Shown piece by piece: positions 3 through 16,000 of a DNA stretch of 16,000 nt. The notes below the pieces were generated by a model that made no database searches, was not told the DNA's origin, and saw only the letters and a list, made by a program, of their open reading frames with translations. Position 1 is the stretch's first letter, and each line of letters starts with the position of its first letter. Origin of the DNA: Candidatus Sororendozoicomonas aggregata (GTDB lineage Bacteria; Pseudomonadota; Gammaproteobacteria; Pseudomonadales; Endozoicomonadaceae); the NCBI RefSeq assembly GCF_031528575.1, contig NZ_JAVLSP010000034.1:21096-37095 (forward strand). The letters are read 5' to 3'. Both the position numbers and the translations under genes were made by a program.

Positions 3-536
3 AGCCTGGAAGCCTATTGCTCGCCATCCTATCACCCAATGAGTCAGGGAATCGCATTAGAAGGCATGCGGTTGATCAAAGAGAATTTGCCGATCGTTTA
101 TGAGACCCCTTCCAATATGGAAGCCCGCGGCCATATGATGACCGCCGCTGCCATGGGGGCTACAGCTTTCCAAAAAGGTCTCGGAGCCATGCACGCCCTC
201 TCTCACCCTGTCAGCGCGGTATTTAACACCCCCCACGGCATGACCAATGCCGTCGTCATGCCTGCCGTACTGAGGTTCAACCGCCCAGCCATCGAAGAAA
301 GTATCACGTCAGCTGCCTCTTATATGGGAATAGATGGCGGCTTCGATGGTTTCTACGATCACATGATCGCACTCTCTGAAACACTAAATGTCCCGAAATC
401 ACTTGAAGAACTCGGCGCAAACCCGGGCAAAATTGAATTACTCGCAAAAATGGCTATTAAAGACCCAAGCGCTGGAGGAAACCCGGTTGAGTTGACCTTA
501 GAGGCCGCGATTAATCTTTATAGTGAGTGTTTTTAA
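3..536 (+). CDS. Iron-containing (group III) alcohol dehydrogenase family protein, C-terminal part. The 5' end lies upstream of the window.
   Basis: The frame of ORF 39..536 stays open back to nt 3 (SLEAYCSPSYHP precedes the listed Met), so the gene starts upstream. It contains the metal-site region GAMHALSHPVS...HGMTNAVVMPAVLRFN typical of Fe-ADH (PF00465-type) enzymes. Stop TAA at 534..536. Confidence 0.85.
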   Translation, partial: SLEAYCSPSYHPMSQGIALEGMRLIKENLPIVYETPSNMEARGHMMTAAAMGATAFQKGLGAMHALSHPVSAVFNTPHGMTNAVVMPAVLRFNRPAIEESITSAASYMGIDGGFDGFYDHMIALSETLNVPKSLEELGANPGKIELLAKMAIKDPSAGGNPVELTLEAAINLYSECF

Positions 537-586
537 ACCCTGATCAAGCCGTGTCGTCAATGTGGAAGAATGGAAAGTACCGTGGC

Positions 587-700
587 TCACTTACTTACCA
601 AGGCAAGTCGTTGCCCAAAGAAGCGACAACATTGACCTGGCTTCTCCACACCATCGCAAAAGTGGGTGGCTGGCGTGGCTCAGTAAGCGGGGTAAACACA
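587..700 (+). pseudogene. Probable remnant of the C-terminus of an IS4/Tn5(IS50)-like transposase
   Basis: The frame of ORF 527..775 reads KSLPKEATTLTWLLHTIAKVGGWRGS. As I recall it, the conserved C-terminal block of Tn5/IS4-family transposases is ...GSLQWAYMAIARLGGFMDS..., which this resembles. Only about 35 to 60 codons are present. There is no catalytic DDE region, and two frames are open here, as expected for decayed sequence. Confidence 0.35.
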
Positions 701-781
701 GCCCAGAGAATTTTAACATCAGACTCAAAAAGGGAGGTGCTACACTTTTATTATATATTCGTAGCAATTCGGTAAAGAGTG

Positions 782-1097: not shown

Positions 1098-1129
1098 TAA
1101 CCGGTATCAGCCGACGACCCTTCCAACTT

Positions 1130-1279
1130 CGCTTTACGCGGCAAGCTGAACGCCAGCCCTGTGTTGCAGCGCCTCGCAATAAGCAGGATTTATACCAATC
1201 GACGCTTCTAAATGCGCTTTACGTTGACAAACTGAACGCCAGATCCGCATTAAAACGCCTCGCGATAGCTCGGGCTATT
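1130..1279. repeat. Degenerate direct repeat of about 85 bp, two units
   Basis: Units start at 1130 and 1215. They share the perfect blocks CGCTTTACG, CTGAACGCCAG and CGCCTCGC in the same order and spacing, with diverged sequence between the blocks. Confidence 0.5.
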
Positions 1280-1367: not shown

Positions 1368-1680
1368 CCCTATTTGTTCACTACATGACGCCCATGCTTT
1401 TTAGAAAACCGAAAAACAGGCGGCTCTTCCGTGGGTTCTGCTTATCACAAAAAATCATGAACCGTTTATTATAAAAAGCGATGTATGGTTTGAAATGAAT
1501 GGGCTAAAAAAATGGTGGATTTCAGTTATTAATAGTTACGGTAGTCTCATCATTTGATGTTGTTGGCTATATCATTTTTTATTCTATCCATCTCATTATT
1601 GGAAGCTATTTATCTGGTTTTAATTGACGGTTTAATCAAAAAAATAGTCTATTTTTAGACAGTTACGCGTTTCAAATGAG
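1368..1680 (+). promoter_or_regulatory. AT-rich upstream region of LDLa gene 1, duplicated upstream of gene 2, with a candidate -35 TTGACG at 1624..1629
   Basis: About 310 bp of non-coding sequence is conserved almost base for base with 5046..5364, including TTGACGGTTTAATCAAAAAAATAGTCTATTTTTAG. No convincing -10 hexamer or strong Shine-Dalgarno is visible, only GAG at 1678..1680. Confidence 0.3.
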
Positions 1681-4600
1681 ATGTCAGTTATGTATTTACT
1701 CTTTTTTTATGCTTGTTTCATGGCGCTGTCAGTGTCAGTAAGCCCAACAATTTATGCTGATCCTGATTCCAATCAACCTTTTGGCCCGACCAACGTTATA
1801 CTTAATCACCCTAATAATTTGAGCAATCATCTGGAGGAGGCAAAAGACAATTTAACAGACGATTTTCATAAGTACTGTCGAACCATGCTATTGGCAGAAG
1901 CAGAAGGCTTTACCGATAAGGAAAACTTTTTGAATAGCGAAAGGAAGTCACCTCGTTACTATTTATTCAAGTCGTTATGTATCCGCCATTTCTGGGCTCC
2001 TACCTTCGATAGTTTTATGCGGTACATTGTACACGGAGACCCTGTTCAGGTTTCAGAACTCCCCTTGTTGAAAACCATGATAAAACTGTGTGAGGCACAC
2101 CCCGGAATGACTATTGGTGAGATGATCAGCGAGGTAGAAAACCAGCAGCACGAAGATGAGGGTATCAACACTTTTTTAAGCTATAAAAACAACAGTCTCG
2201 AAAAGCATCAACAAGCGCTGGATGAGATCGTCGGCTTCTATCAGTCCGATAACGACGGGGAATACGAGGGTATCAACCCTGTTTCAGACGACAAAGCCAA
2301 CAGTATCCACAAGCATCAACAAGCGTTGGCTGAAGTCGGCTACGATGAGCTTGAGAACAGCGGGGAATCCTGTGGGGAGTCCTGGTTTGACGGCTGGTTT
2401 GAACACACAAGATTCTCTGGTGTGATAAGCAAACTGACAAACCTGGCTTCTTCCTTTGTCTCCCCTTTGAGCTTGCTAGTGACGGGGCTGCCCTGTGGCG
2501 TGTCAGGTTTTGATTGTAGAAGTGGGGAAACAGTACCGGATAATCGGGTATGTGATGGCAAATGGCACTGCTCTGACGGTAGTGATGAGGCCACCTTCTT
2601 TACGATAGATTTCGAGACCCCCTGTTTTCTATGTAGAGATGATAGTAAGCTGATTCAGAGTAAACTGCTCTGCGACGGCAAGAGACAGTGCGAGGACGGC
2701 AGCGATGAGTCAACCAGCGATGACTATCCCGTCTGTTTCCAATGTAGCGAGGGTGAGCTGATTCGCCGTAATCACAAGATCTGCGATGGCAAAAACGACT
2801 GCGGCAATGGCAGTGATGAGCGTGTCAGCGGCGAGAATCCGTCCTGTCTTCGATGTACAAATGGCGCTATGAGACCTATTGCATTTAAATGCGATGGCTA
2901 CAGAGACTGCCGTAGTGGCAGTGATGAGCTGGCGTGTAATAAGCCTGATACTACTAGCCCCACTGGTAGCCCTACTATTGGCAACTCCTATGTTTGTGAA
3001 AACGGGAAAACCATCCCGGCAGGACAGCGCTGTAATGGAAATCACGAATGTGCTGACGGGAGTGATGAGCAAGCATCAAGGTGCTGTGAAAATCCAGAGC
3101 AGTGGGTTAACGGTACTACCGGGCTGTGTGTTAAAAAAGGCGACCCCGGCACCAGATTCTATGTCTGTCAGAACGGGCATATCATCAATAAAACATTGCA
3201 CTGCGATGGCAATGACAACTGCGGTGACCGGAGTGATGAGAAAGTAGCAACGTGCTGTGAAAATCCAGAGCAGTGGGTTAACGGTGCTACCGGGCTGTGT
3301 GTTAAAAAAGGCGACCCCGGCACCAGATTCTATGCCTGTCAGAACGGGCATATTATGAATAAAACATTGCACTGCGATGGCGATGACGGCTGCGGTGACG
3401 GGAGTGATGAGCGTCCATCAGATTGCTGTGGAAGCAGTGTTCACTCTGTCACCGGGGAGTGTAATAAAAAAGGTGACCCTGACACCAAATTCTTTGTCTG
3501 TGAAAACGGGGAGCGAACCATTCGGGATGACTATCGCTGTAATAATGATTTGAATTGCCCTGACGGCAGTGATGAGCGTACCAACGGCACACGCCCTCCC
3601 TGTTTTCGTTGTGAAAATGGTCGGGTGATTCACAAGTCTGTTTTCATCCAATGCGATGGGGCTAACAACTGCGGTGACTGGAGTGATGAGAGCACCAGCG
3701 GTGAGAACCCTCCCTGTTTTCGTTGTCAAAACGATAAGGTGATTAACCGTGATAACTATCTCTGTGATGGTAGTAACCATTGCGATGACTGGAGTGATGA
3801 ACAGGCCGCGGACTGCTGTAAAAATCCGCGGCGGTGGGTTAACGGTACCACCGGGTTGTGTCATAAAAAGGGAACACGGGGCCACAAATTCTTTGTTTGT
3901 GAAAAAGGGCATACCATCCGAGGAATATGGCATTGTGATACTGGTGACGATTGCGGTGACAGGAGTGATGAAAAGACCAGGGACTGCTGTGTAAATGGGG
4001 AGCTGGGGGTTGATCGTACCACCGGACTGTGTAACAAAATAAGACACCCTGGCGCCAAACTTTATGCTTGCGAGGACGGGCGAACCGTCGCCGGAGATAA
4101 GCGCTGTGACGGTACTATAAACTGCCCTGACGGCAGCGATGAGCGTACCAACGGCACATACCCCCCGTGTTTTAAGTGCAACGATGGTCGATTAGCGTTC
4201 GCTGAAATACGCTGTAACGGTGTAATAAACTGCCCTGACGGCGGTGATGAGCGTACCAACGGCACACACCCCCCGTGTTTTAAGTGCAACGATGGTCAGG
4301 TGAAGCCCACTGAGATGCGCTGTGACGGGAGTATAAACTGCGCTGACGGCAGTGATGAGTTGGCGTGCAATAAATTCAATATTACTCATATTGGTAATAC
4401 GACGAATTTTGGTAATACGACGAATTTTGGTAATACGACGAATTTTGGTAATCATTCTTCCATGGGCAATTCTACTGATCTTACCGACTCTCCTGATACG
4501 CCTGATACTAATAATGCTGTTTTAAGCGCGCTTCTATCGACCCCAGTCCTGGTGGCGATAGGCGCAGGGGCAGGCCTGGCCTATTATGCTGTAATGCTGG

Positions 4601-4725
4601 TCATTGAAAAAGATAAAATAAAGTCAGAAGGTAAGTTTAAATGGCTGGTTTCTCCTATCACCACCCCCTATAAATACCTGAGGCGTCGTTGTGGCCACCA
4701 AGAAGTTGAAGCTGAGGAAGTGTAG
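1681..4725 (+). CDS. LDL-receptor class A (LDLa) repeat protein with 14 modules, an N-terminal signal peptide and a C-terminal TM anchor (paralogue 1)
   Basis: 1014-aa ORF. Signal-like N-terminus MSVMYLLFFYACFMALSVSVSPTIYA|D. There are 14 occurrences of C-[DN]-G-x3-C-x-D-x-[SG]-D-E (for example CDGKRQCEDGSDE, CDGNDNCGDRSDE). TM helix AVLSALLSTPVLVAIGAGAGLAYYAVMLVI at 4516..4605, followed by a basic tail. The start could be ATG 1681 or ATG 1690. Confidence 0.85.
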   Translation: MSVMYLLFFYACFMALSVSVSPTIYADPDSNQPFGPTNVILNHPNNLSNHLEEAKDNLTDDFHKYCRTMLLAEAEGFTDKENFLNSERKSPRYYLFKSLCIRHFWAPTFDSFMRYIVHGDPVQVSELPLLKTMIKLCEAHPGMTIGEMISEVENQQHEDEGINTFLSYKNNSLEKHQQALDEIVGFYQSDNDGEYEGINPVSDDKANSIHKHQQALAEVGYDELENSGESCGESWFDGWFEHTRFSGVISKLTNLASSFVSPLSLLVTGLPCGVSGFDCRSGETVPDNRVCDGKWHCSDGSDEATFFTIDFETPCFLCRDDSKLIQSKLLCDGKRQCEDGSDESTSDDYPVCFQCSEGELIRRNHKICDGKNDCGNGSDERVSGENPSCLRCTNGAMRPIAFKCDGYRDCRSGSDELACNKPDTTSPTGSPTIGNSYVCENGKTIPAGQRCNGNHECADGSDEQASRCCENPEQWVNGTTGLCVKKGDPGTRFYVCQNGHIINKTLHCDGNDNCGDRSDEKVATCCENPEQWVNGATGLCVKKGDPGTRFYACQNGHIMNKTLHCDGDDGCGDGSDERPSDCCGSSVHSVTGECNKKGDPDTKFFVCENGERTIRDDYRCNNDLNCPDGSDERTNGTRPPCFRCENGRVIHKSVFIQCDGANNCGDWSDESTSGENPPCFRCQNDKVINRDNYLCDGSNHCDDWSDEQAADCCKNPRRWVNGTTGLCHKKGTRGHKFFVCEKGHTIRGIWHCDTGDDCGDRSDEKTRDCCVNGELGVDRTTGLCNKIRHPGAKLYACEDGRTVAGDKRCDGTINCPDGSDERTNGTYPPCFKCNDGRLAFAEIRCNGVINCPDGGDERTNGTHPPCFKCNDGQVKPTEMRCDGSINCADGSDELACNKFNITHIGNTTNFGNTTNFGNTTNFGNHSSMGNSTDLTDSPDTPDTNNAVLSALLSTPVLVAIGAGAGLAYYAVMLVIEKDKIKSEGKFKWLVSPITTPYKYLRRRCGHQEVEAEEV
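3082..3423 (+). repeat. Near-identical 171-bp (57-aa) in-frame tandem duplication, two units
   Basis: Units 3082..3252 and 3253..3423 both begin TGCTGTGAAAATCCAGAGCAGTGGGTTAACGG. They differ at only a handful of positions over the first ~125 nt. A third, diverged unit starts at 3424. Confidence 0.9.
4123..4338 (+). repeat. 108-bp (36-aa) in-frame tandem duplication, two units
   Basis: Units 4123..4230 and 4231..4338 both begin TGCCCTGACGGC(A/G)G(C/T)GATGAGCGTACCAACGGCACA(T/C)ACCCCCCGTGTTTTAAGTGCAACGATGGTC. Paralogue 2 has a single unit, starting at 8431. Confidence 0.9.
4393..4452 (+). repeat. 18-bp in-frame tandem repeat GGTAATACGACGAATTTT (GNTTNF), three units plus a partial unit
   Basis: Perfect units at 4393..4410, 4411..4428 and 4429..4446, followed by GGTAAT. 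Paralogue 2 has one diverged unit at 8593..8610. Confidence 0.95.
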
Positions 4726-4851
4726 CCAATTATAATCCGTCGTCGTTTAATAATCAGCGGTTTATCAGCGCTTTGCCAGGATATCGAATATTGATGGGTG
4801 TCCTGGTAATACCCTGGTAATAGCCCGAACAAACGCCGCATATCTTGCCTG

Positions 4852-4935
4852 TTAGCCCGGATATTTCATAAACTGCCCTTAGAGCCGCAAGGAGCAAGCA
4901 AGGCCAGGAGCATGTTTATGAAATATCCAGGTTAG
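4852..4935 (+). mobile_element. Type-2 MITE-like palindromic element (84 bp), flanked by TTAG
   Basis: Termini are GCCCGGATATTTCATAAAC ... GTTTATGAAATATCCAGG(T). It is nearly identical to the reverse complement of 12244..12327. It lies exactly at the end of duplication unit 1. Confidence 0.7.
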
Positions 4936-4989
4936 TAAAAAGGGAAAGGACTTCCCTTTAAAAATATTAAGAAGCAGTCTTAAAAGTCT

Positions 4990-5058
4990 GCCCGTAGCGA
5001 GGACCGCGAGAAATGGCGGATAAAAAGTCGCTTTTGTGAGGAGAATAGCGGGACTATT
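4990..5058 (+). mobile_element. Truncated internal fragment of the type-1 MITE
   Basis: GCCCGTAGCGAGGACCGCGAGAAATGGCGGATAAAAAGTCGCTTTTGTGAGGAGAATAGCGGGACTATT aligns with the left-central part of the copies at 8887, 12080 and (reverse complement) 10737. The terminal inverted repeats are absent. Confidence 0.5.
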
Positions 5059-5364
5059 GTTCATCACATGACGCCCCATGCTTTTTAGAAAACCAAAAAA
5101 CAGGCGGCTCTTCCATGGGGTCTGTTTATCACAAAAAATCATGAACCGTTTATTATAAAAAGTGAGGATATGGTTTGAAACGAATGGGCTAAAAAAATGG
5201 CTGATTTCAGTTCGTAATAACCACGGGAGTCTCATCATTTAATGTTGTTGGCTATATCATTTTTCATTCTATCTATCTCATTATTGGAAGCTATTTATCT
5301 GTTTTCAATTGACGGTTAAATCAAAAAATAGTCTATTTTTAGGCAGTTACGCGCTTCAAGTGAG
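5046..5364 (+). promoter_or_regulatory. Duplicated upstream region of LDLa gene 2, with a candidate -35 TTGACG at 5309..5314
   Basis: Near-identical to 1368..1680. Conservation of this much non-coding sequence between paralogues suggests a shared promoter or leader. Confidence 0.3.
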
Positions 5365-8300
5365 ATGTCAGTTATGTATTTACTCTTTTTTTATGTTTTT
5401 TTCATGGCGCTGTCAGCGTCAGTAAGCCCAACAATTTATGCTGATTCTGATTCCAATCAACCTTTTGGCCCGACCAACGTTATACTTAATCACCCTAATA
5501 ATTTAAGCAATCATCTGGAAGAGGCAAAAGACAATTTAACAGACGATTTTCATAAGTACTGTCGAACCATGCTATTGGCAGAAGCAGAAGGCTTTACCGA
5601 TAAGGAAGACTTTTTGAATAGCGAAAGGAAGTCACCTCGTTACTATTTATTCAAGGCGTTATGTATCCGCCATTTCTGGGCCCCTAACCTTGATAGTTTT
5701 ATGCGGTACATTGTACACGGAGACCCTGTTCAGGTTTCAAAACTCCCCTTGTTGAAAACCATGATAAAACTGTGTGAGGCACACCCCGGAATGACTATTG
5801 GTGAGATGATCAGCGAGGTAGAAAACCAGCAGCACGAAGATGAGGGTATCAACACTTTTTTAAGCTATAAAAACAACAGTCTCGAAAAGCATCAACAAGC
5901 GCTGGATGAGATCGTCGGCTTCTATCAGTCCGATAACGACGGGGAATACGAGGGTATCAACCCTGTTTCAGACGACAAAGCCAATTGTATTAAAGAGCAT
6001 CAACAAGCGTTGGCTGAAGTCGGCTACGATGAGCTTGAGAACAGCGGGGAATCCTGTGGAGATTCCTGGTTTGACGGTTGGTTCAAACAAACAAAACTCT
6101 CTGGTGTGATAAGTACACTGACAAACCTGGCTTCTTCCGTTGTCTCCCCTTTTAGCTTGCTGGCGATGGGTCTGCCCTGTGATGTATCAGGTTTTGTTTG
6201 TGACAATGGGGAAGTAGTGCCAGATTATTGGGCGGGGTCTCTACGGTGCAATAAAAAGAGAGAGTGCGAAGACGGTAGTGATGAGCGCTCCAGCGGTTTT
6301 CGCCCCCCCTGTTTTCAATGTAACAGCGATGGTAAGCTAATTCAGAGTGAACGGCTCTGCAATGGCAAGAGAGAGTGCGATGACGGTAGCGATGAGGCAA
6401 CCAGCGGTGTCAACCCCCTCTGTTTCCACTGTGGCAAAGAGGGTGAGCTGATTCGCAATAATCTCCAGATCTGCGATAGCAGAAACCACTGCAGCAATGG
6501 CGGTGATGAGCGTACCAGCGGCAAGAATCCTCCCTGTTTTCGATGTAAAAATGGTGATTGGATTATTCGTAAAGAAATGCGCTGTAACGGTATTAAAAAC
6601 TGCGATGACCACAGTGATGAACAGGCCAATAACTGCTGTGAAAATTGGACGTTGCAGAGCAAAGGTAACAGACTGTGTAATAAAAAAGGAGACCCTGGTA
6701 CCAAATTATATGTCTGTCAAAATGGACAAACCATCAAGAAAACATGGCGCTGCGATGGCCAAGTTGATTGCGTCGACGGCAGTGATGAGCGCGCCAGCGG
6801 TGCGACCGCCCCCTGTTTTCGTTGTAAACAGGGTAATCCAGTGCTCAGTGAAATGCGCTGTAACGGTGTTAAAGACTGCGATTACGCCAGTGATGAGCGG
6901 GCTGGAGACTGCTGTGAAAATTGGACGTTGCAGAGCAACGGTAACAGATTGTGTCATAAAAAAGGAGACCCCGGTACCAAATTCTATGTCTGTCAAAATG
7001 GACAAACCATCAAAGCAGCATGGCGCTGCGATGGCGTAGTTCATTGCATCGGCGTCATTCCCAGTGATGAACGCGTCAGCGGTGCCAACCCTGCCTGTTT
7101 TCGTTGTCAAAACGCTCGGATAATTAAAAATAACCACCTGATCTGCAATGGCGAAGACGACTGCGGCGACAATAGTGATGAGAGCGACTGTTTTCATTGT
7201 AAAAATGGTGATCGGGTTCGTAGTGAAATGCGCTGCGATGACCACCAGGACTGCGCTGATAACAGTGATGAGCTGCTGTGTCATTCCTTTGACTGCTCAA
7301 ACGGACAGGAAACCATCGAGATAGAATATTACTGTGATGGAATGGGCCACTGTAGTGACGGGAGTGATGAACAAGCGCAAAACTGCTGTGAAAACCCGGA
7401 GCTATTGGTTAACGGTACCACGGGTCTGTGTATTAAAAAAGGACACCCCGACATCACATTATTTGTCTGTCAAAACAGGAAAACCATCCGGCCAGAATTT
7501 CACTGTAATGGCTATACAGAATGCAGTGACATGAGTGATGAGCAACCACAAGACTGCTGTGAAAATCCGGAGCGGTGGGTTAAGGGCACTACCGGGCTGT
7601 GTAATAAAAAAGGAAACCCCGGCGCGGAATTATATGTTTGTCAAAACGGGCGAACCACCCGGCCAGAATTTCACTGTAATGGCTATAACGATTGCGGTGA
7701 TGGAAGTGATGAGCAAGCATCAAAATGCTGTGTAAATCCGGGGCGGTGGATTTGGGGCACCACCGGGGTGTGTGATAAAAAAGGAGACCCTGGTACGAAA
7801 TTCTATGTTTGTCAAAATGGGCAAACCATCAACGAAGCATGGCGCTGCAATCGCATTAACGAGTGCGGTGATGGGAGTGATGAACGCATCAGCGGTCACA
7901 ACCCTCCCTGTTTTCTTTGTCAAAATGGTCGGTTCATTCACAACTTTTTTGGCATGACCTGCAATGGTAGGAACAACTGCGGTGACTGGAGTGATGAGAG
8001 CGCCAGCGGTGACAACGCTCCTTGTTTTCGTTGTCAAAATGGTACGGTGATTAGCCGTAGTGGCATGTTCTGCAATGGCGTTAACAATTGCGATGACTGG
8101 AGTGATGAGCAGGCCGCGGACTGCTGTCAAAATCCGCGGCGGTGGGTTAACGGTACCACCGGGTGGTGTCATAAAAAGGGAACACGGGGCCAGAAACTCT
8201 TTGTTTGTGAAAAAGGGCATACCATCCGAGAATTATGGCATTGTGATACTTTTGACGATTGCGGTGGCAGGAGTGATGAAAAGACTGAAGACTGCTGTGT

Positions 8301-8889
8301 CAATGGGGAGCTGGGGGTTGATCGTACCACCAGACTGTGTGACAAAATAAGACACCCTGGCGCTAAACTTTATGCTTGCGAGGACGGGCGAACCGTCGCG
8401 GGAGATAAGCGCTGTGACGGTAGTATAAACTGCCTTGACGGCAGCGATGAGCGTACCAACGGCACATATCCCCCGTGTTTTAAGTGCGACAATGGCCAGG
8501 TGAAGCCCACTGAGATGCGCTGTGACGGTTTTATCAACTGCGCTGACGGCAGTGATGAGCTGGCGTGCAATAAATTCAATATTACTCATACTGGCAATAC
8601 AACGAATTTTGGTAATCATTCTTTCATGGGCAATTATACGGATATTAACGACTCTCCTGATACGCCTGATACTAATAATGCTGTCTTAAGCGCGCTGCTA
8701 TCGACCCCAGTCCTGGTGGCGATAGGCGCAGGGGCAGGCCTGGCCTATTATGCTGTGATGTTGGTCATTGAAAGAGATAAAATAAAGTCAGAAGGTAAGT
8801 TGAAATGGCTGGTTTCTCCTATCATCGCCCCCTATAAATACCTGTTGCGTCGTTGTGGCTGCCAAGAAGTTGAAGCTGATGAAGTGTAG
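5365..8889 (+). CDS. LDL-receptor class A (LDLa) repeat protein with 18 modules, an N-terminal signal peptide and a C-terminal TM anchor (paralogue 2)
   Basis: 1174-aa ORF. The first ~270 aa and the last ~250 aa are very similar to paralogue 1. There are 18 C-[DN]-x-x3-C-x-D-x-[SG]-D-E type motifs, one of them degenerate (CDGVVHCIGVIPSDE). TM helix at 8680..8769. The stop TAG 8887..8889 coincides with the first bases of a MITE. Confidence 0.85.
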   Translation: MSVMYLLFFYVFFMALSASVSPTIYADSDSNQPFGPTNVILNHPNNLSNHLEEAKDNLTDDFHKYCRTMLLAEAEGFTDKEDFLNSERKSPRYYLFKALCIRHFWAPNLDSFMRYIVHGDPVQVSKLPLLKTMIKLCEAHPGMTIGEMISEVENQQHEDEGINTFLSYKNNSLEKHQQALDEIVGFYQSDNDGEYEGINPVSDDKANCIKEHQQALAEVGYDELENSGESCGDSWFDGWFKQTKLSGVISTLTNLASSVVSPFSLLAMGLPCDVSGFVCDNGEVVPDYWAGSLRCNKKRECEDGSDERSSGFRPPCFQCNSDGKLIQSERLCNGKRECDDGSDEATSGVNPLCFHCGKEGELIRNNLQICDSRNHCSNGGDERTSGKNPPCFRCKNGDWIIRKEMRCNGIKNCDDHSDEQANNCCENWTLQSKGNRLCNKKGDPGTKLYVCQNGQTIKKTWRCDGQVDCVDGSDERASGATAPCFRCKQGNPVLSEMRCNGVKDCDYASDERAGDCCENWTLQSNGNRLCHKKGDPGTKFYVCQNGQTIKAAWRCDGVVHCIGVIPSDERVSGANPACFRCQNARIIKNNHLICNGEDDCGDNSDESDCFHCKNGDRVRSEMRCDDHQDCADNSDELLCHSFDCSNGQETIEIEYYCDGMGHCSDGSDEQAQNCCENPELLVNGTTGLCIKKGHPDITLFVCQNRKTIRPEFHCNGYTECSDMSDEQPQDCCENPERWVKGTTGLCNKKGNPGAELYVCQNGRTTRPEFHCNGYNDCGDGSDEQASKCCVNPGRWIWGTTGVCDKKGDPGTKFYVCQNGQTINEAWRCNRINECGDGSDERISGHNPPCFLCQNGRFIHNFFGMTCNGRNNCGDWSDESASGDNAPCFRCQNGTVISRSGMFCNGVNNCDDWSDEQAADCCQNPRRWVNGTTGWCHKKGTRGQKLFVCEKGHTIRELWHCDTFDDCGGRSDEKTEDCCVNGELGVDRTTRLCDKIRHPGAKLYACEDGRTVAGDKRCDGSINCLDGSDERTNGTYPPCFKCDNGQVKPTEMRCDGFINCADGSDELACNKFNITHTGNTTNFGNHSFMGNYTDINDSPDTPDTNNAVLSALLSTPVLVAIGAGAGLAYYAVMLVIERDKIKSEGKLKWLVSPIIAPYKYLLRRCGCQEVEADEV
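6178..8568 (+). repeat. In-frame array of 18 LDLa-like modules
   Basis: Same module grammar as 2494..4368. There are 7 CC-linker (long) modules here against 5 in paralogue 1. Confidence 0.85.
6634..7188 (+). repeat. Two-module super-repeat of about 276 bp (92 to 93 aa), two units
   Basis: Units start at 6634 and 6910 with TGCTGTGAAAATTGGACGTTGCAGAGCAA(A/C)GGTAACAGA. The first ~130 nt are nearly identical (CCENWTLQS.GNRLC.KKGDPGTK.YVCQNGQTIK..WRCDG). The remainder has diverged. Confidence 0.8.
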
Positions 8890-9051
8890 GGGCCTGTCCG
8901 AGAACAGCGCCCGTAGGAGGATTGCCAGAAATTGAGGATAAAATTTCTGCTTCTGAGGAGAGCAGCGAGGCTATTTGATGAAGAAGCAGGAGTTTTTAGA
9001 CCAATTTATCGCAACCGCAGTGGGGCAGTCTATTCTCGGTCAGGCTGCTAG
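8887..9051 (+). mobile_element. Type-1 MITE-like element (165 bp), copy A
   Basis: TAG-GGGCCTGTCCGAGAACAG ... CTATTCTCGGTCAGGCTGC-TAG, with imperfect terminal inverted repeats flanked by TAG. It has no coding capacity. It is absent from the equivalent position after paralogue 1, where the stop TAG is followed directly by CCAATTAT (compare TCAATGAT after this copy). Confidence 0.75.
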
Positions 9052-10736: not shown

Positions 10737-10904
10737 CTAGGAGCCTGTCCGAGAATAGACTGCCCTACTGCGGTGGCAGCAAATTGGTCTAAAAAGTCGG
10801 AAATTTTTAGCAAATAGAACCACTATTCACTAAAAATTTCCGACTTTTTATCCTCAATTTTCTGCCATCCTCGCTACGGGCGCTATTCTCGGACAGCCTC
10901 CTAG
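10737..10904 (-). mobile_element. Type-1 MITE-like element (168 bp), copy B, inverted relative to copies A and C
   Basis: CTAG-GAGCCTGTCCGAGAATAG ... CTATTCTCGGACAGCCTC-CTAG. The interior holds a 20-bp inverted repeat, AAAAAGTCGGAAATTTTTAG / CTAAAAATTTCCGACTTTTT. Its reverse complement aligns with copies A and C. Confidence 0.75.
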
Positions 10905-11004: not shown

Positions 11005-11499
11005 CTATAACATTGATTTAACGAGGTTCTTTCGACTAAATAACGAGGTAATCACGATAGCCAGCAGGTGGATACCGATGAAGTAGAACAGACTATTGAC
11101 CAATAAGCTGTGCCATTCATAGACACCCTGTTCAAGTCCAAAATCGGTGTCCTGAAGCCAGCCAGTAAAAGCGCAAAGTAACAACATTGTCCACATGAAC
11201 CAGACAGCCATAGCCCCCAACGGGTTATGACCGTGGGGTTGGTAATTGCCTTCTTTCAGCTCCTGAAGGTGATGCTCAACACCCTTGATAGAAAAGCAAA
11301 TATCTCGAAGTCGGGCAGGCGTCTTGGCAAAGGTCATACCATAGAGCAGGCGCAAGCAAACCAGTAAAAGAATCCCCCAGCCAGCATAGGTATGATACTG
11401 GCTTCCTCCTCCAAACAGGAACTGATTGCTAAAAAAAAGCACGACTACTGACCAGTGAATCAGCTTGACAACGCCAGGCCAACGGAATGGTTCAGACAT
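11005..11499 (-). CDS. Cytochrome b561-family (PF01292-like) di-haem membrane protein
   Basis: Four hydrophobic helices carry the conserved His pattern (IHWSVV, YHTYAGW, EWHSLL, GIHLLA). The preferred start is ATG 11499 (MSEPFRWPG...), which overlaps the upstream stop as ATGTCTGA. The listed ORF start 11532 would overlap cybC by 41 nt. Confidence 0.7.
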   Translation of the reverse strand: MSEPFRWPGVVKLIHWSVVVLFFSNQFLFGGGSQYHTYAGWGILLLVCLRLLYGMTFAKTPARLRDICFSIKGVEHHLQELKEGNYQPHGHNPLGAMAVWFMWTMLLLCAFTGWLQDTDFGLEQGVYEWHSLLVNSLFYFIGIHLLAIVITSLFSRKNLVKSML

Positions 11500-11926
11500 C
11501 GAATTTGCCGTGGTATTGTTTCTTGATATCATTGAGCGCTTTCATTCTATTTTTAGCAAGATCGAGATCACCCGCGTTAATGGCGTCCTGAACTGATGAC
11601 AGGCCCGTCAGTAGCTCGCTAACACCTGTCTGGAATGCTTCAGGATCTTCAGAGTACCCCGCTTTTTTTGCTTTTTCAGCATAGGCATGAAATTCATCTA
11701 CGTAGCCCTGCAGCTCATCCAGTGTTTTTGCAGAAATAGAGCGCTTAAAGTTAAACCCCATTGTTTTCATTGCTGCGCTCAACGGCTTACTTCCGCCTTC
11801 CTTTTTTATTTCTTCAGCCTGCATGCTATCGCTAGCTGTTGGTGCGCCGTTGACAATATAGGCGGTGCTTAAAACCACTACTGACAGCGCCACGGGAATA
11901 AGGACTGCTTTTAAGTTAAATTGCAT
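11492..11926 (-). CDS. cybC: Soluble periplasmic cytochrome b562 family protein
   Basis: Signal peptide MQFNLKAVLIPVALSVVVLSTAYIVNGA. Four-helix-bundle-like sequence with an N-proximal Met (AAMKTMGFNFK) and the C-terminal motif KKQYHGKF, comparable to E. coli b562 RNAYHQKY (Met/His haem ligands). Confidence 0.7.
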   Translation of the reverse strand: MQFNLKAVLIPVALSVVVLSTAYIVNGAPTASDSMQAEEIKKEGGSKPLSAAMKTMGFNFKRSISAKTLDELQGYVDEFHAYAEKAKKAGYSEDPEAFQTGVSELLTGLSSVQDAINAGDLDLAKNRMKALNDIKKQYHGKFDV

Positions 11927-12079: not shown

Positions 12080-12247
12080 CTAGGAGCCTGACCGAGAATA
12101 GCGCCCTTAGCGAGGGTTGCGCGAAATTGAGGATAAAAATTTCTGTTTATGAGGAGAATAGTGGGGCTATTTGATGGAGAAGCAGGAATTTTTAGATCCA
12201 TTTATCGCAACCGCAGTAGGGCAGTCTACTCTCGGACAGGCTCCTAG
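12080..12247 (+). mobile_element. Type-1 MITE-like element (168 bp), copy C
   Basis: CTAG-GAGCCTGACCGAGAATAG ... CTACTCTCGGACAGGCTC-CTAG. It is colinear with copy A. Confidence 0.75.
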
Positions 12248-12327
12248 CCCGGATATTTCATAAACATGCTCCTGGCCTTGCTTGCTCCTTGCGGCTCTAA
12301 GGGCGGTTTATGAAATATCCGGGCTAG
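12244..12327 (-). mobile_element. Type-2 MITE-like element (84 bp), second copy, sharing its flanking CTAG with type-1 copy C
   Basis: CTAG-CCCGGATATTTCATAAAC ... GTTTATGAAATATCCGGG-CTAG. Its reverse complement is nearly identical to 4852..4935. Confidence 0.7.
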
Positions 12328-12582
12328 CATGGGGCCAAATAACTCAAATGGGAATGTTGGATAATTTGGAACTCTAAAGTGGGTAGATAATGAACAAAAG
12401 TACTGTTTTTATAGGGTGACAGGAATATAAGTTGTTCACTCAAAAAAGACACCAGTAGTTAATTCTACCGTCATCGTTCAGGCTTGGCCCAAGGTGCTAA
12501 TCAACCAATCTGGCGCAGTTTTATCACCCTCTATGGCGCACCTGGAATCTGGCAACGACTGTCGTTTGTCTGAATAACACAT

Positions 12583-14074: not shown

Positions 14075-16000
14075 TCAAGGTCTATGACAACCTTTTTTAC
14101 TGACATCGGCCTTGAGCATGTCAATAAAAGCCTGTATTGACATCACCCCCTTGTCTTCGCCTGTTCGGGTTCGTACCGCGACGTTACCATTTTGAGACTC
14201 TTTGTCGCCAACGATGATCAGGTAAGGGGTCTTCATTAAGGTATGTTCGCGGATTTTAAAGCCGATCTTCTCGTTTCTCAAGTCTGCTTTGGCTCTAAAT
14301 CCGTTTTCTGATAAAGATTTTTGCAATTGCAGGGCGTATTCACCCTGACGGTCGGTAATATTCAGAATCGACACCTGCGTGGGGGCTAACCATGCGGGCA
14401 TCGCTCCTTCAAAGTGTTCAATGAGAATACCGATAAACCGCTCAAAAGAGCCAAGAATCGCCCGGTGAAGCATAACAGGCGTTTTGCGCCCGCCGGTTTC
14501 ATCCACATACTCAGCGCCTAAACGTCCGGGCATGGAAAAATCCACCTGTATGGTACCACATTGCCAAACCCGACCGATACAGTCTTTCAGGGAGAACTCT
14601 ATTTTCGGGCCATAGAAGGCACCTTCACCGGGCAGTTCCTCCCAGGGCAGCCCTTGAGTGTCCAGTGCTTTTGCCAGGGATTTCTCCGCTTTGTCCCAGA
14701 TTTCATCTGACCCCACACGCTGTTCAGGGCGCGTTGACAGTTTATACATCAGGCTAGCGCGATCAAAGCCCATGTCATCATAGACTTCATGGAGAAAATC
14801 AATAAAATCAGCCACTTCCTGCTGAATCTGATCTTCTGTCACAAAGATATGGGCGTCATCCTGAGTAAAGCCCCGCACGCGCATAATCCCATGCAAAGCA
14901 CCTGAAGGCTCGTTGCGGTGACAGGAACCAAACTCTGCCAGACGCAGCGGCAAGTCACGGTAGCTTTTCAGCCCCTGATTAAACACCTGCACATGACACG
15001 GGCAGTTCATGGGCTTCACCGCCATGTCTTTGTTTTCAGAATGGGTGGTGAACATGTCATCTTTGAACTTGTCCCAATGCCCGGATTTTTCCCACAATGT
15101 CCGCTCCACCAGCTGGGGCGTTTTGATTTCCCGGTAGCCATGGGTAATCTGCTTACGGCGCATGTACTGCTCCAGCTCCTGGTAAATCGCCCAGCCGTCA
15201 GGGTGCCAGAATACCATGCCTGGCGCTTCTTCCTGCATATGGAACAGGTCAAGCTTTTTACCGAGTTTTCGGTGGTCACGTTTTTCAGCTTCTTCTAGGC
15301 GGAGCAGGTAGGATTTCAGCGCCTTTTTATCTTCCCAGGCAGTGCCATAAATGCGGGTCAGCATTTCGTTATTGGCATCACCCCGCCAGTACGCACCGGC
15401 AACACGCATCAGCTTAAAAGCCTTCAACTTGCCCGTGGAAGGGACATGGGGACCACGGCACAAGTCCATCCAGTCTCCCTGGCGGTACACCGAGATCTCT
15501 TCTGATGCAGGCAGGTCATTAATGATCTCAACCTTATACGTTTCACCCATAGCCTTAAAAGCGTCTACCGCTTCTTCACGGGTCATCACCAAACGATCTA
15601 TCGGGAGGTCTTGCTTCGCCAGCTCCCCCATACGTTTTTCAATTTTGGTCAGGTCTTCTGGCGTAAACGGGCGCTCGTAAGCAAAGTCGTAGTAGAATCC
15701 GTTGTCGATAACAGGGCCAATGGTAACCTGTGCGCCAGGGTACAAATCCTGCGCCGCCATAGCTAACAAGTGCGCCGTGGAGTGACGGATCACTTCGACC
15801 CCCTCTTCATCACGCGCGGTAATAATTGAGAGTTTCGCGTCATCAGATATGCGCGTGCTGGCATCCACCAACTCACCGTTTATACGACCAGCCAATGTTG
15901 CTTTGGCCAAACCCGGACCAATATCCTGAGCAACCTCCATCACGGAAACGGCGTCGGCAAATTCACGTTTGCTGCCATCGGGAAGTGAAATTACAGGCAT
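14075..16000 (-). CDS. thrS: Threonine--tRNA ligase (complete)
   Basis: The 641-aa ORF begins [34 protein letters not shown] (E. coli [34 protein letters not shown]). It carries class II core motifs, for example [30 protein letters not shown]. The start ATG is the last codon of the window (15998..16000). Confidence 0.97.

What the first reader, a model, noticed from the sequence alone, without database searches (positions are those of the whole stretch)
1681..8889. Tandem pair of giant LDL-receptor class A (LDLa) repeat proteins in an otherwise ordinary bacterial locus
Two same-strand ORFs (1014 and 1174 aa) consist mostly of 14 and 18 cysteine-rich modules. Each module ends in the hallmark acidic calcium-cage motif C-[DN]-G-x3-C-x-D-x-S-D-E of LDL-receptor type A repeats (CDGKRQCEDGSDE, CDGQVDCVDGSDE, CDGNDNCGDRSDE and others).

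LDLa modules are a metazoan extracellular ligand-binding domain and are rare in bacteria. These genes are nevertheless intron-free. They lie between bacterial housekeeping genes (Fe-ADH, srmB, the thrS operon) and are surrounded by the same MITE families as those genes.

This profile fits a eukaryote-like protein of a host-associated bacterium. Possible roles are capture of host ligands, receptor mimicry or decoy, and adhesion. I know of no characterised bacterial system with this architecture. Everything beyond domain identity is inference.
Basis: partly seen in the sequence, partly recalled or inferred. Interest (0 to 1): 0.9.

Follow-up and report, generated by a model that had tools for sequence, protein, structure and literature searches.

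The report
Coral symbiont's tandem LDL-receptor-like membrane proteins
Two neighbouring genes of a cultured coral-tissue bacterium encode very large membrane-anchored proteins built from 14 and 18 calcium-cage modules like those of animal LDL receptors; they belong to a small, uncharacterised family found so far only in animal-associated Endozoicomonadaceae and probably bind host molecules, though that role is untested.

Summary
ORFs 1681-4725 (1014 aa) and 5365-8889 (1174 aa) carry 14 and 18 LDLa-type modules (Pfam PF00057, E 1.5e-74 and 5e-90). [quoted passage not shown]

New findings:
- They are tandem paralogues of a family I found only in Endozoicomonadaceae: Sororendozoicomonas, two Ca. 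Endonucleobacter species, Endozoicomonas sp. and an invertebrate metagenome.
- The family's constant parts are a signal peptide, an N-terminal domain with no detectable sequence or fold relative, a transmembrane helix and a conserved tail motif (W-L-x-S-P-I-T). The cysteine-rich array between them varies from 0 to 18 modules.
- Every module lacks the third cysteine of animal LDLa (0/29 here, 95/97 in animal modules). An unrelated bacterial protease has the same subtype. Codon usage looks native, so recent capture of a host receptor gene is unlikely.
- The arrays grow by module duplication, and the ends of the two genes appear homogenised.

Function is inferred, not shown: calcium-dependent binding of host ligands at the cell envelope. 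LDLR-like genes in Endozoicomonas, with an egg-lipoprotein and vertical-transfer speculation, were already noted by Ide et al. 2022. This is a useful lead in a culturable strain, not a categorical novelty.

The parts
1370..1680 (+). Upstream region of gene 1, duplicated with the gene. Contains a weak sigma-70-like site at 1444-1472.
   Evidence: blastn of unit 1 against unit 2: 1370-2864 matches 5054-6554 at 89.7%. Repeat families D7, D11 and D16 are 91-95% identical. The same ATCACA-17-TATTAT site occurs in both copies, but the overall count of such sites does not exceed shuffles.
1681..4725 (+). LDLa-array gene 1 (1014 aa; annotated start 1690; Bakta MGKHPG_08705).
   Evidence: (PF00057, E 1.5e-74).
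1681..1758 (+). Gene 1 signal peptide (aa 1-26, ...SPTIYA|D). The n-region carries no charged residue.
   Evidence: Hydropathy peak at aa 2-20. The cleavage-type motif [IT]-Y-A is conserved in family members. Cleavage is inferred; no predictor was run.
1759..2487 (+). Gene 1 N-terminal orphan domain (aa 27-269). The conserved core is about aa 27-190, followed by a 36-aa internal repeat and a hydrophobic, amphipathic linker.
   Evidence: The profile search found 15 further representative proteins. AF2 on the 16-sequence alignment gave pLDDT 78.5 and pTM 0.70. There is no Pfam, NCBIfam, PDB or BFVD match.
2488..4359 (+). Gene 1 array of 14 LDLa-like modules: 9 with four cysteines (short type, including the first module and a linker-extended fifth) and 5 long (six cysteines).
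   Evidence: and 33 (alignments to LRP2, VLDLR and LDLR chains). Intragenic tandem repeats: 171 bp x2.1 at 3054-3411 and 108 bp x2.4 at 4102-4359.
4360..4515 (+). Gene 1 juxtamembrane stalk, low-complexity and rich in N-x-S/T. Includes an 18-bp (NTTNFG) repeat x3.4 at 4391-4452.
4516..4605 (+). Gene 1 transmembrane helix (aa 946-975).
   Evidence: Hydropathy 2.11 over 19 aa. This segment is conserved across the family.
4606..4725 (+). Gene 1 cytoplasmic tail with the conserved motif K-x-x-K...E-G-K-x-K-W-L-V-S-P-I-T...Y-L-R-R-x-C, plus the stop codon.
   Evidence: Tail alignment: the motif is present in 14 of 15 family members.
4850..5058 (.). MITE-like repeat at the junction between the two duplicated units.
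   Evidence: Inverted repeat I1 (95% with 12244-12329) and direct repeat D17 (78% with 12103-12171).
5054..5364 (+). Upstream region of gene 2, the copy of 1370-1680. Weak sigma-70-like site at 5128-5156.
5365..8889 (+). LDLa-array gene 2 (1174 aa; annotated start 5374; WP_330925729.1, MGKHPG_08710).
   Evidence: PF00057, E 5e-90; P0001 is 100% identical.
5443..6171 (+). Gene 2 N-terminal orphan domain (aa 27-269).
   Evidence: 92% identical to the gene 1 domain. Signal peptide plus this domain: dS 0.076.
6172..8559 (+). Gene 2 array of 18 LDLa-like modules: 11 short and 7 long. Module 7 has a two-residue insertion in the acidic motif.
   Evidence: Tandem repeat of 171 bp x3.1 at 7354-7883.
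8560..8679 (+). Gene 2 stalk. It has one NTTNFG unit where gene 1 has three.
8680..8769 (+). Gene 2 transmembrane helix (aa 1106-1135).
8770..8889 (+). Gene 2 cytoplasmic tail with the conserved W-L-V-S-P-I motif, plus the stop codon.
8940..9051 (.). MITE-like repeat copy downstream of gene 2.
   Evidence: D15 (88% with 12136-12247) and I3.

Best explanation
The two ORFs are tandem paralogues of a family so far seen only in Endozoicomonadaceae. The proteins are Sec-exported and single-pass, anchored by a C-terminal transmembrane helix.

Architecture, from N to C terminus:
1. Signal peptide.
2. A roughly 160-240 aa, mostly helical N-terminal domain with no detectable relative outside the family.
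3. An acidic array of disulfide-reduced LDLa-like calcium-cage modules (14 and 18 here, the largest sampled).
4. A short stalk rich in N-x-S/T.
5. A transmembrane helix.
6. A roughly 40 aa basic tail with a conserved W-L-x-S-P-I-T...Y-L-R motif.

Proposed mechanism (inferred, not shown):
- The protein is exported and its cysteines are oxidised in the periplasm.
- The modules fold around Ca2+, which is abundant in sea water and coral tissue fluid.
- The protein presents a long, negatively charged, beads-on-a-string surface, with the N-terminal domain at its tip.
- This surface binds basic patches on host proteins, as animal LA modules do. Lipoproteins are the obvious candidates.
- The outcome would be attachment or aggregation in host tissue, capture of host nutrients, or both.
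- The conserved tail couples the protein to an unknown partner on the cytoplasmic side.

Evolution: the gene pair and the arrays change by tandem gene duplication, tandem module duplication or loss, and homogenisation of the gene ends. That behaviour fits a host-facing, fast-evolving surface component.
For: Shown:
- Domain identity and module counts.
- Alignment of modules to LRP2, VLDLR and LDLR structures. The C4-D/N-G-x3-C5-x-D-x-S-D-E cage is retained.
- N-terminal hydrophobic segment and a single strong C-terminal transmembrane segment. The ectodomain has net charge -56/-55 and the membrane-proximal tail is rich in Lys/Arg, which fits an outside-facing ectodomain and cytoplasmic tail.
- Family membership: the N-domain profile found 15 further representative proteins, with E down to 6.6e-44. 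Cluster members that carry a name come from Ca. Endonucleobacter bathymodioli, Ca. Endonucleobacter sp. ex Gigantidas childressi, Endozoicomonas sp. and an invertebrate metagenome.
- Those proteins have the same architecture. The tail motif occurs in 14 of 15.
- Cage-motif count varies from 0 to 18 across the family.
- Tandem arrays recur: five full copies plus fragments in Endonucleobacter.
- Intragenic tandem repeats of 171, 108 and 18 bp.
- Mosaic synonymous divergence between the two genes: dS 0.076 in the N-domain, 0.33-0.49 in the early and middle array, 0.07-0.13 at the C-terminus. dN/dS is 0.46-0.81, and both ORFs are intact over more than 1000 codons.
- GC3 and codon usage are like the neighbouring genes.
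- The organism is a tissue-associated, vertically transmitted coral symbiont. All other named family members are animal-associated.

From established knowledge: LA modules of the LDLR family bind lysine-rich epitopes through their acidic calcium cage.
Against: - There is no experimental datum on expression, localisation or ligands.
- A C-terminal transmembrane anchor after a Sec signal peptide would place the array in the periplasm of a Gram-negative cell, behind the outer membrane. How it would reach host ligands is unexplained.
- Key ligand- and calcium-binding residues are weaker than in animal modules. Asp before Cys5 is present in 6/28 modules against 81/97. The pocket Trp is present in 3/28 against 31/97.
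- Some family members have degenerate cages (P0129), and several have no cage motifs (P0124, P0132, P0134; P0137 also has no PF00057 match). The cage therefore cannot be the family's universal active part.
- No conserved neighbouring genes point to a pathway.
Confidence: 0.5

Rival explanations
1. Stalk model. The LDLa-like array is mainly a calcium-stiffened spacer of adjustable length. It holds the conserved N-terminal domain, the real functional head, away from the membrane, as extender domains do in bacterial repeat adhesins. Ligand binding by the cages is secondary or absent.
For: - The N-domain and the tail are the parts conserved across genera. The array varies from 0 to 18 modules, and one member replaces it with a different cysteine-rich segment (P0134).
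- Some members have degenerate cages (P0129).
- Between the two window genes the N-domain is the best-conserved part (92% aa identity).
- Module copy number changes by tandem duplication.
Against: - The S-D-E cage is kept in all 32 modules of the window genes despite about 25-30% amino-acid divergence in the array. That argues for selection on calcium binding at least.
- A pure spacer does not need a net charge of -55.
- The function of the N-domain is unknown, so the model only moves the question.
Confidence: 0.25
2. Host-membrane receptor mimic or decoy. The protein leaves the bacterium, by vesicles or a secretion system, and works in or on host membranes as an LDLR-like type I protein. The tail would then engage host cytosolic machinery.
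For: - The overall layout copies an animal type I receptor: signal peptide with uncharged n-region, LA array, sequon-rich stalk, transmembrane helix, short conserved tail.
- N-x-S/T sequons sit in the CC-loop of 26 of 41 long modules across the family.
- Family members occur in intranuclear parasites, and Endozoicomonadaceae are reported to carry other host-derived genes such as IAPs and ephrin ligands.
Against: - No known route delivers a disulfide-rich ectodomain of about 1000 aa across two bacterial membranes and into correct topology in a host membrane.
- Candidate host sorting motifs in the tail (YKYL, C-terminal E-x-V) are not conserved in the third paralogue or the wider family.
- Overall sequon enrichment is modest: p about 0.02, 0.14 and 0.007 for the three paralogues.
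- The modules are of the prokaryotic, Cys3-less type.
Confidence: 0.08
3. Periplasmic role unrelated to host recognition, for example calcium or metal buffering, envelope spacing, or a scaffold for periplasmic enzymes.
For: - The predicted topology puts the array in the periplasm.
- A similar four-cysteine module occurs in a DegP-type periplasmic protease from an unrelated bacterium (P0003).
- The array has very high acidic and calcium-site density.
Against: - The family is restricted, as far as sampled, to animal-associated Endozoicomonadaceae. The exhaustive N-domain profile search of 1.84 billion representatives returned only 17 hits, and the names available for their clusters are all from that family or an invertebrate metagenome.
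- Recurrent tandem amplification and fast array turnover are unusual for housekeeping envelope proteins.
- An extended array of 14-18 modules is longer than a periplasm is wide (inference from module size).
Confidence: 0.12
4. Artefact, or very recent capture of a host gene: a chimeric join to coral DNA, or a freshly transferred coral LDLR-family gene.
For: - Best non-family database hits are mostly animal LRP, VLDLR and LDLR proteins.
- Host-to-bacterium transfers are reported in this bacterial family.
Against: - The genome is from a cultured isolate.
- The genes sit inside a 37.5-kb contig between bacterial genes.
- GC3 is 0.48-0.49 against 0.53-0.56 for most neighbouring housekeeping genes (0.44 in cytochrome b562). 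RSCU correlation is 0.63, against 0.68 for a housekeeping control.
- A third paralogue lies elsewhere in the genome, and homologues occur in other genera.
- Cys3 is absent in every module, but present in 95/97 animal modules.
- Similarity to animal proteins is only 23-35% and limited to the cage.
- No cnidarian protein stands out among the hits.
Confidence: 0.02

Closest known systems
Ligand-binding (LA, class A) modules of the animal LDL receptor family (Pfam PF00057; LDLR, VLDLR, LRP1/2)
   Same: - The C-terminal calcium-cage lobe, C4-[DN]-G-x3-C5-x-D-x-S-D-E, with the F/Y-x-C2 start.
- Tandem arrays in the ectodomain of a type I single-pass protein, with a sugar- or sequon-rich stalk and a short tail.
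- Pfam E 1e-74 to 5e-90, and direct alignment to LRP2 and VLDLR structures.
   Different: - No Cys3, so no Cys1-Cys3 disulfide (0/29 against 95/97).
- The next cysteine follows S-D-E after 8 or 4 residues instead of 2.
- The long subtype has a CC-x13-C insert.
- The Asp before Cys5 and the pocket Trp are mostly replaced.
- No EGF or YWTD beta-propeller domains and no NPxY tail.
- A bacterial gene with a family-specific N-terminal domain.
'LDLR-like gene' of coral-associated Endozoicomonas clade A1 (Ide et al. 2022, Microbiome 10:220, PMC9743535; orthogroup OG0003603 with PF00057)
   Same: PF00057-bearing genes in coral symbionts of the same bacterial family. They are uncharacterised and were proposed to bind host egg lipoprotein and aid vertical transfer.
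   Different: I could not retrieve those sequences, so it is unknown whether they share the N-domain, anchor and tail scaffold. For the entries I could read, that paper's table gives the SignalP class OTHER (no signal peptide). No architecture or family analysis is given there.
Homologues in Ca. Endonucleobacter (intranuclear parasites of deep-sea mussels), e.g. MDP0589528.1, MDP0562069.1 and the tandem set MDP0562560-66
   Same: The same scaffold (signal peptide ending ...YA, N-domain, short and long Cys3-less modules, repeat stalk, transmembrane helix, W-L-L-S-P-I-T tail) and the same habit of tandem amplification.
   Different: - Shorter arrays (0-6 cage motifs), and many cages are degenerate.
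- N-domain only 28-33% identical to the window's.
- Different genomic neighbourhoods.
- Not discussed in the Endonucleobacter paper.
Eukaryote-like repeat proteins of marine symbionts (ankyrin, WD40, TPR, LRR and others)
   Same: Repeat domains typical of animals, enriched and amplified in host-associated bacteria. They are presumed to mediate host interaction.
   Different: Those are mostly cytosolic interaction domains delivered as effectors. Here the domain is extracellular-type, disulfide-bonded and calcium-binding, on a membrane-anchored protein. The published screen of this genome looked only for ankyrin, WD40 and TPR domains.
Other prokaryotic LDLa-like arrays: a metagenomic S1-C (DegP-type) protease (P0003), and roughly 1380-aa surface proteins of marine group II archaea (e.g. 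Ca. Poseidonia alphae, P0013)
   Same: - Reduced-cysteine versions of the same cage.
- P0003 has the identical C-F-x-C...C-D-G-x3-C-x-D-G-S-D-E four-cysteine form.
- Mean pair score of window modules against P0003 modules is 66.7, similar to 67.1 between modules of the two window proteins and above 54.9 against animal modules.
   Different: Unrelated protein contexts. The archaeal modules keep only two cysteines and end in a short archaeal-type C-terminal anchor. None has the N-domain or the tail motif.

Membership tests
LDL-receptor class A domain (PF00057 / LA module) | Significant match to the family profile above the curated threshold | tested here: met
   246.4 and 295.9 bits against a cutoff of 24.1, with 13 and 16 stretches. 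PDB phmmer hits to LRP2, LRP4, VLDLR and LDLR, E 1e-24 to 1e-7.
LDL-receptor class A domain (PF00057 / LA module) | Acidic calcium cage: C4-D-x3-D-C5-x-D-x-S-D-E | tested here: met
   - [SG]-D-E is present in all 32 modules.
- C5-x-D-x-[SG]-D-E is present in 26 of 32.
- The residue after C4 is D in 16 and N in 12 modules.
- The residue before C5 is D or E in only 11 of 28, and N, H, Q or G in the rest.
- Calcium binding itself was not measured.
LDL-receptor class A domain (PF00057 / LA module) | Six cysteines forming C1-C3, C2-C5 and C4-C6 disulfides within about 40 residues | tested here: not met
   - No cysteine lies at the C3 position in 0/29 window modules, against 95/97 animal modules.
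- Short modules have 4 cysteines.
- Long modules have 6, but two of them lie in an N-terminal CC-x13-C insert.
- The cysteine following S-D-E is at +8 or +4 rather than +2.
- Disulfide connectivity was not determined.
LDL-receptor class A domain (PF00057 / LA module) | Aromatic residue (usually Trp) two positions before C4, forming the lysine-binding pocket | tested here: inconclusive
   Trp in 3/28 and Tyr in 3/28 window modules; otherwise Met, Leu, Lys and others. Animal modules have Trp in 31/97 and Tyr or Phe in 20/97.
Animal LDLR-family receptors (whole-protein architecture) | LA array followed by EGF-precursor region with YWTD beta-propeller, and an NPxY endocytosis motif in the tail | tested here: not met
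   Pfam finds only PF00057. The tail has no NPxY.
Endozoicomonadaceae N-domain / W-L-x-S-P-I-T-tail family (defined here) | Homologous N-terminal domain | tested here: met
   The profile search returned 17 proteins with E up to 0.001, 15 of them up to 1e-10. The two window-species proteins scored 1e-158 and 8e-120. Alignment A2.
Endozoicomonadaceae N-domain / W-L-x-S-P-I-T-tail family (defined here) | C-terminal transmembrane helix followed by the conserved tail motif | tested here: met
   Both window proteins and 12 of 13 other members examined carry it.
C-terminal sorting-signal proteins (GlyGly-CTERM/rhombosortase, PEP-CTERM/exosortase) | Short signature motif, transmembrane helix, then only a few basic residues at the extreme C-terminus | tested here: not met
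   The tail after the helix is about 40 residues with its own conserved motif. There is no GG or PEP signature before the helix. NCBIfam, which I expected to include models for such sorting domains, gave no hit.
Bacterial lipoproteins | Lipobox L-[AS]-[GA]-C at the end of the signal peptide | tested here: not met
   Gene 1 has F-Y-A-C at aa 9-12, but gene 2 has no cysteine there (F-Y-V-F).

The most novel reading that the evidence does not exclude
These proteins are a bacterial counterpart of the LDL receptor. They would be envelope-anchored or vesicle-borne calcium-cage arrays that capture host lipoproteins, such as yolk- or vitellogenin-type carriers in coral mesenteries. That would feed the symbiont and carry it into developing larvae, giving a molecular mechanism for the vertical transmission seen for this species. 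The amplified homologues in intranuclear mussel parasites would do the nutritional part. Ide et al. 2022 raised this as a speculation for another Endozoicomonas clade. It has not been tested, and this strain is culturable.
Probability: 0.12. Interest if true: 0.85.

Novelty: new variant of a known kind. Interest (0 to 1): 0.58.

Why it matters
How tissue-resident coral bacteria attach, aggregate and pass to offspring is unknown. Endozoicomonadaceae are the dominant such bacteria worldwide.

This locus offers a concrete, testable candidate in a strain that grows in culture. It encodes two very large proteins with more than 30 calcium-cage modules. They belong to a family so far seen only in animal-associated members of this bacterial family and amplified in an intranuclear parasite.

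The locus also shows that LDLa-like modules occur in a distinct, disulfide-reduced prokaryotic form. That bears on whether 'eukaryote-like' domains in symbionts are really borrowed from hosts. Finally, it defines an N-terminal domain and a tail motif with no known relatives.

Tried and rejected
Searches that gave nothing or could not be used:
- The word-index protein search with the N-domain alone and with the family alignment returned nothing or one hit. The exhaustive HMMER search found 17, so I treat as false negatives of that tool.
- Exact-sequence look-ups of the two proteins and of P0001/P0002 found no contig.
- The genome-contig scan with gene 1 found nothing.
- The scan with SrmB returned only relatives of 53% identity or less, from other families.
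- Two metagenome-contig scans found nothing.
- AF2 of the N-domain with 3 sequences was unusable (pLDDT 47). The 16-sequence run was usable, but Foldseek against the PDB and BFVD gave no match (best E above 1, TM at most 0.26).
- The PDB profile search gave only weak hits to the ferritin H-chain N-terminus (E 0.004 for one engineered chain, about 1 for wild type). I regard these as chance helical similarity.
- NCBIfam gave no hit.

Ideas considered and rejected:
- Y-x-x-Phi (YKYL) and C-terminal E-x-V (PDZ-type) motifs in the tail: not conserved in the third paralogue or the family.
- Lipoprotein signal: the cysteine is absent in gene 2.
- PglB-type bacterial N-glycosylation: the sequons lack D/E at position -2.
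- C-terminal sortase-like sorting signals: the tail is too long and has its own motif.
- The hydrophobic stretch at aa 250-277 as a second transmembrane helix. Its hydropathy is only 1.35-1.49, and a helix there would put the disulfide-rich array in the cytoplasm.
- Promoter and terminator scans did not exceed shuffled expectation.

Full report
**1. What is there**

The window has two same-strand ORFs, 1681-4725 (1014 aa) and 5365-8889 (1174 aa). Pfam finds only PF00057 (Ldl_recept_a) in them, at E 1.5e-74 with 13 stretches and 5e-90 with 16 stretches.

Parsing by the acidic motif gives exactly 14 and 18 modules:
- All 32 fit C-x5-C-x(2-6)-[SG]-D-E.
- Residue-shuffled proteins give 0.03 such motifs.

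The flanks are ordinary bacterial genes: Fe-ADH C-terminus, an SrmB-type helicase, cytochromes b561 and b562, and rplT, infC and thrS.

**2. Source**

Gene 2 from its fourth codon is 100% identical to WP_330925729.1 of Candidatus Sororendozoicomonas aggregata. The Bakta table of Maire et al. 2024 (PMC10833068) lists the same gene order on contig_34 of isolate Pac_P3-11-1: alcohol dehydrogenase, a hypothetical protein, two 'hypothetical protein, PF00057' genes, then srmB.

This bacterium forms cell-associated aggregates in the mesenterial filaments of Pocillopora acuta. It is present in larvae and was cultured. The paper screened only for ankyrin, WD40 and TPR proteins and does not discuss these genes.

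**3. Anatomy**

Each protein has, in order:
- An N-terminal hydrophobic segment ending ...TIYA|D.
- A roughly 240-aa non-repetitive region.
- The module array.
- A low-complexity stalk rich in N-x-S/T, with an 18-bp NTTNFG repeat (3.4 copies in gene 1, one in gene 2).
- One strong transmembrane segment (aa 946-975 and 1106-1135).
- A tail of about 40 aa that is Lys/Arg-rich near the membrane.

The ectodomain has net charge -56/-55. This is a type I, outside-facing ectodomain layout. In a Gram-negative cell it predicts an inner-membrane anchor with the array in the periplasm, unless the protein is exported further. That is inference; nothing here tests it.

**4. The modules are a distinct subtype**

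Short modules are 36-38 aa with 4 Cys: x8-C-F-x-C-x11/12-C-[DN]-G-x3-C-x-D-x-S-D-E. Long modules are 55-58 aa with 6 Cys and a CC-x13-C insert before the F/Y-x-C. HMMER alignments to LRP2 show the canonical Cys3 replaced by Val or Ile.

| Feature | Window | Other family members | Bacterial protease P0003 | Animal modules |
|---|---|---|---|---|
| Cysteine at the C3 position | 0/29 | 0/38 | 0/6 | 95/97 |
| Next Cys after S-D-E | +8 (13), +4 (10), +2 (4), other or none (2), of 29 | mostly +4 or +8 | mostly +7 | +2 (84/97) |
| Asp before C5 | 6/28 | 22/35 | 5/5 | 81/97 |
| Pocket Trp | 3/28 | 7 | 0 | 31/97 |

Marine group II archaeal proteins in the hit list keep only two cysteines per module.

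Mean pair scores of module cores:
- Window against P0003: 66.7.
- Between modules of the two window proteins: 67.1.
- Window against animal modules: 54.9.
- Best-hit mean against P0003 is 77.7, above every one of 200 size-matched animal subsamples (maximum 75.6).

The calcium-cage lobe is therefore LDLa, but the N-terminal lobe and the disulfide plan are not canonical, and the subtype is shared among prokaryotes. Part of the score difference comes from the missing cysteine itself.

**5. Native or borrowed**

GC3 is 0.48-0.49, against 0.53-0.56 in most neighbouring housekeeping genes (0.44 in cytochrome b562). The RSCU correlation with them is 0.63, against 0.68 for a housekeeping-versus-housekeeping control. 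No cnidarian protein stands out among the hits. The nearest non-family hits have E around 1e-20 and 23-32% identity.

Contamination, or a recent transfer of a host receptor gene, is effectively excluded. An ancient transfer followed by remodelling cannot be excluded.

**6. A family, not a singleton**

A third paralogue (WP_330927462.1; 701-719 aa; 8 modules) lies elsewhere in the same genome on a 3-kb contig.

An exhaustive HMMER search of 1.84 billion representatives with the N-domain profile found 15 further proteins, with E from 6.6e-44 to 3e-4. Source names of cluster members place them as follows:
- Ca. Endonucleobacter bathymodioli.
- Ca. Endonucleobacter sp. ex Gigantidas childressi.
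- Endozoicomonas sp.
- An invertebrate metagenome.
- NCBI names two of them 'LDL receptor domain-containing protein' and 'low-density lipoprotein receptor class A repeat-containing protein'.

They share the whole scaffold: a signal peptide ending ...YA, the N-domain, short and long Cys3-less modules, a repeat stalk and a transmembrane helix. They also share a tail motif, about Y-x-x-M-L-V-K-Y-R-x-K-K...G-x3-W-L-[LV]-S-P-I-T-x4-Y-L-R, present in 14 of 15 members examined.

The middle part is variable. It has 0 to 18 cage motifs, and one Endozoicomonas member has a different cysteine-rich segment. The window genes carry the largest arrays sampled.

In the Gigantidas parasite, five full copies plus fragments form a tandem array next to an 885-aa ankyrin protein. 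A second pair lies next to queA-tgt-yajC-secDF. Tandem amplification recurs, but no conserved partner gene is seen.

**7. The N-domain**

- No Pfam or NCBIfam match.
- With 16 sequences, AF2 gives a mostly helical model (pLDDT 78.5, pTM 0.70).
- A weak profile hit to the ferritin H N-terminus is probably chance.

**8. Evolution of the pair**

The duplicated unit includes about 310 bp upstream: 1370-4725 against 5054-8889. DNA identity is 90% at the 5' end, 80% in the collinear middle and 91-93% at the 3' end. Gene 2 has about 800 bp of extra modules. A MITE-like element (4850-5058) sits at the junction.

Synonymous divergence is mosaic:

| Region | dS |
|---|---|
| Signal peptide plus N-domain | 0.076 |
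| Early and middle array | 0.33-0.49 |
| Late array | 0.11 |
| C-terminal part | 0.07-0.13 |

dN/dS is 0.46-0.81. The simplest reading is gene conversion at the ends together with module shuffling in the middle. Some middle alignments may pair non-orthologous modules.

Tandem repeats of one module length show ongoing module duplication:
- 171 bp x2.1 at 93% identity.
- 171 bp x3.1.
- 108 bp x2.4.

**9. Mechanism**

Shown:
- Architecture and domain identity.
- Family distribution.
- Evolutionary dynamics.

Inferred:
- Sec export and oxidative folding.
- Calcium-stabilised modules forming a long acidic array that binds basic epitopes of host proteins.
- The N-domain acting as a distal head.
- The tail engaging an unknown partner.

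The main weaknesses are the unexplained passage across the outer membrane, the weakened cage and pocket residues, and the family members with no modules. I therefore give 0.5 to host-ligand binding or adhesion and 0.25 to a mainly structural stalk role. The periplasmic role gets 0.12, the host-membrane mimic 0.08 and an artefact 0.02.

**10. Prior knowledge and novelty**

Ide et al. 2022 (PMC9743535) reported an LDLR-like gene (orthogroup with PF00057) in Endozoicomonas clade A1 from Acropora tenuis. They speculated that it binds egg lipoprotein and aids vertical transfer. The Endonucleobacter paper does not mention its homologues. Other literature searches found no study of bacterial LDLa proteins.

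The general idea is therefore published as speculation, and the domain is in public annotation. What is new here is the family definition (orphan N-domain, anchor, tail motif), the Cys3-less module subtype and its prokaryotic distribution, and the duplication and conversion dynamics. I rate it a new variant of a known kind, with interest 0.58. It is helped by the facts that the strain is culturable and the species is vertically transmitted.

Noticed in passing
window 4850-5058, 8940-9051, 10737-10904, 12080-12329: Copies of one or two MITE-like repeat families (79-95% identical, in both orientations) occupy several intergenic spaces: the junction of the two LDLa genes, and the spaces after gene 2, after srmB, and between cytochrome b562 and rplT.
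   Followed up: partly
window 1128-1270: By eye, two adjacent copies of a roughly 60-bp sequence (cgctttacg...aactgaacgccag...gcctcgc) lie upstream of the duplicated unit. This may be another small repeat family. The repeat finder at minimum length 40 did not report it.
   Followed up: no
window 2152-2230 / 2260-2338 and 5836-5914 / 5944-6022: The linker after the N-domain contains an internal 36-aa duplication (E-[DY]-E-G-I-N...K-H-Q-Q-A-L). The third paralogue lacks one copy, seen as a 27-column gap in alignment A1.
   Followed up: partly
window 4391-4452 versus 8590-8610: A perfect 18-bp repeat (NTTNFG) occurs 3.4 times in gene 1 and once in gene 2. Endonucleobacter homologues have an analogous FTDSN repeat stalk, which led NCBI to annotate one as a 'pentapeptide repeat' protein. 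These look like length-variable, sequon-rich stalks.
   Followed up: partly
long modules of both genes and family members (e.g. window 3082-3120, 3814-3852): An N-x-S/T sequon sits at a fixed place in the CC-x13-C loop in 26 of 41 long modules across the family. N-G-T recurs in some short-module linkers. Overall enrichment is modest (p about 0.02, 0.14 and 0.007). No D/E lies at position -2, so these are not PglB-type sites. The meaning is unknown: glycosylation or a structural turn.
   Followed up: partly
window 1444-1472 and 5128-5156: The same weak sigma-70-like site (ATCACA-17-TATTAT) is conserved in both duplicated upstream regions. The scan as a whole is not above shuffled expectation.
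   Followed up: no
window 527-775 and 779-1045: Two small ORFs (82 and 88 aa) lie between the Fe-ADH gene and the LDLa genes, with no Pfam match. The second corresponds to Bakta's hypothetical MGKHPG_08700.
   Followed up: no
window 11005-11926 (minus strand): Cytochrome b562 (11492-11926) and cytochrome b561 (11005-11532) ORFs overlap by 41 bp as listed. The true start of b561 is probably further downstream.
   Followed up: no
window 14075-16000: The window ends exactly on the thrS start codon. ThrS is identical in a second public assembly (GCA_031546025.1, a 9.5-kb contig that stops about 700 bp after rplT). L20 is also identical in Logan runs SRR32327913 and SRR32327915 and in a Tara scaffold. 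The short-read assemblies break near the repeats.
   Followed up: partly
L085 1598-18464 (Ca. Endonucleobacter sp. ex Gigantidas childressi, JASXSU010000003.1): Five full-length family genes of 700-710 aa, at least four of them sharing one 90%-identity cluster, plus fragments, are spaced about 2.45 kb apart at a contig end, directly after an 885-aa ankyrin-repeat protein.
   Followed up: partly
P0003 (JGI metagenome, 757 aa): A DegP/S1-C-type protease from an unidentified bacterium carries five or six four-cysteine modules of the same C-F-x-C...C-D-G-D-D-D-C-G-D-G-S-D-E form, so this subtype exists outside Endozoicomonadaceae.
   Followed up: partly
P0004, P0013 and about 20 similar hits (marine group II archaea, ~1380 aa): There are abundant archaeal proteins with dozens of two-cysteine LDLa-like cages plus PF12999, ending in a short hydrophobic C-terminal anchor. 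They form a large, apparently undiscussed prokaryotic reservoir of this cage.
   Followed up: no
tool behaviour, versus 44: The word-index protein search failed to return family members that the exhaustive search found, including the window's own proteins. Negative results from that tool for this family should not be trusted.
   Followed up: yes
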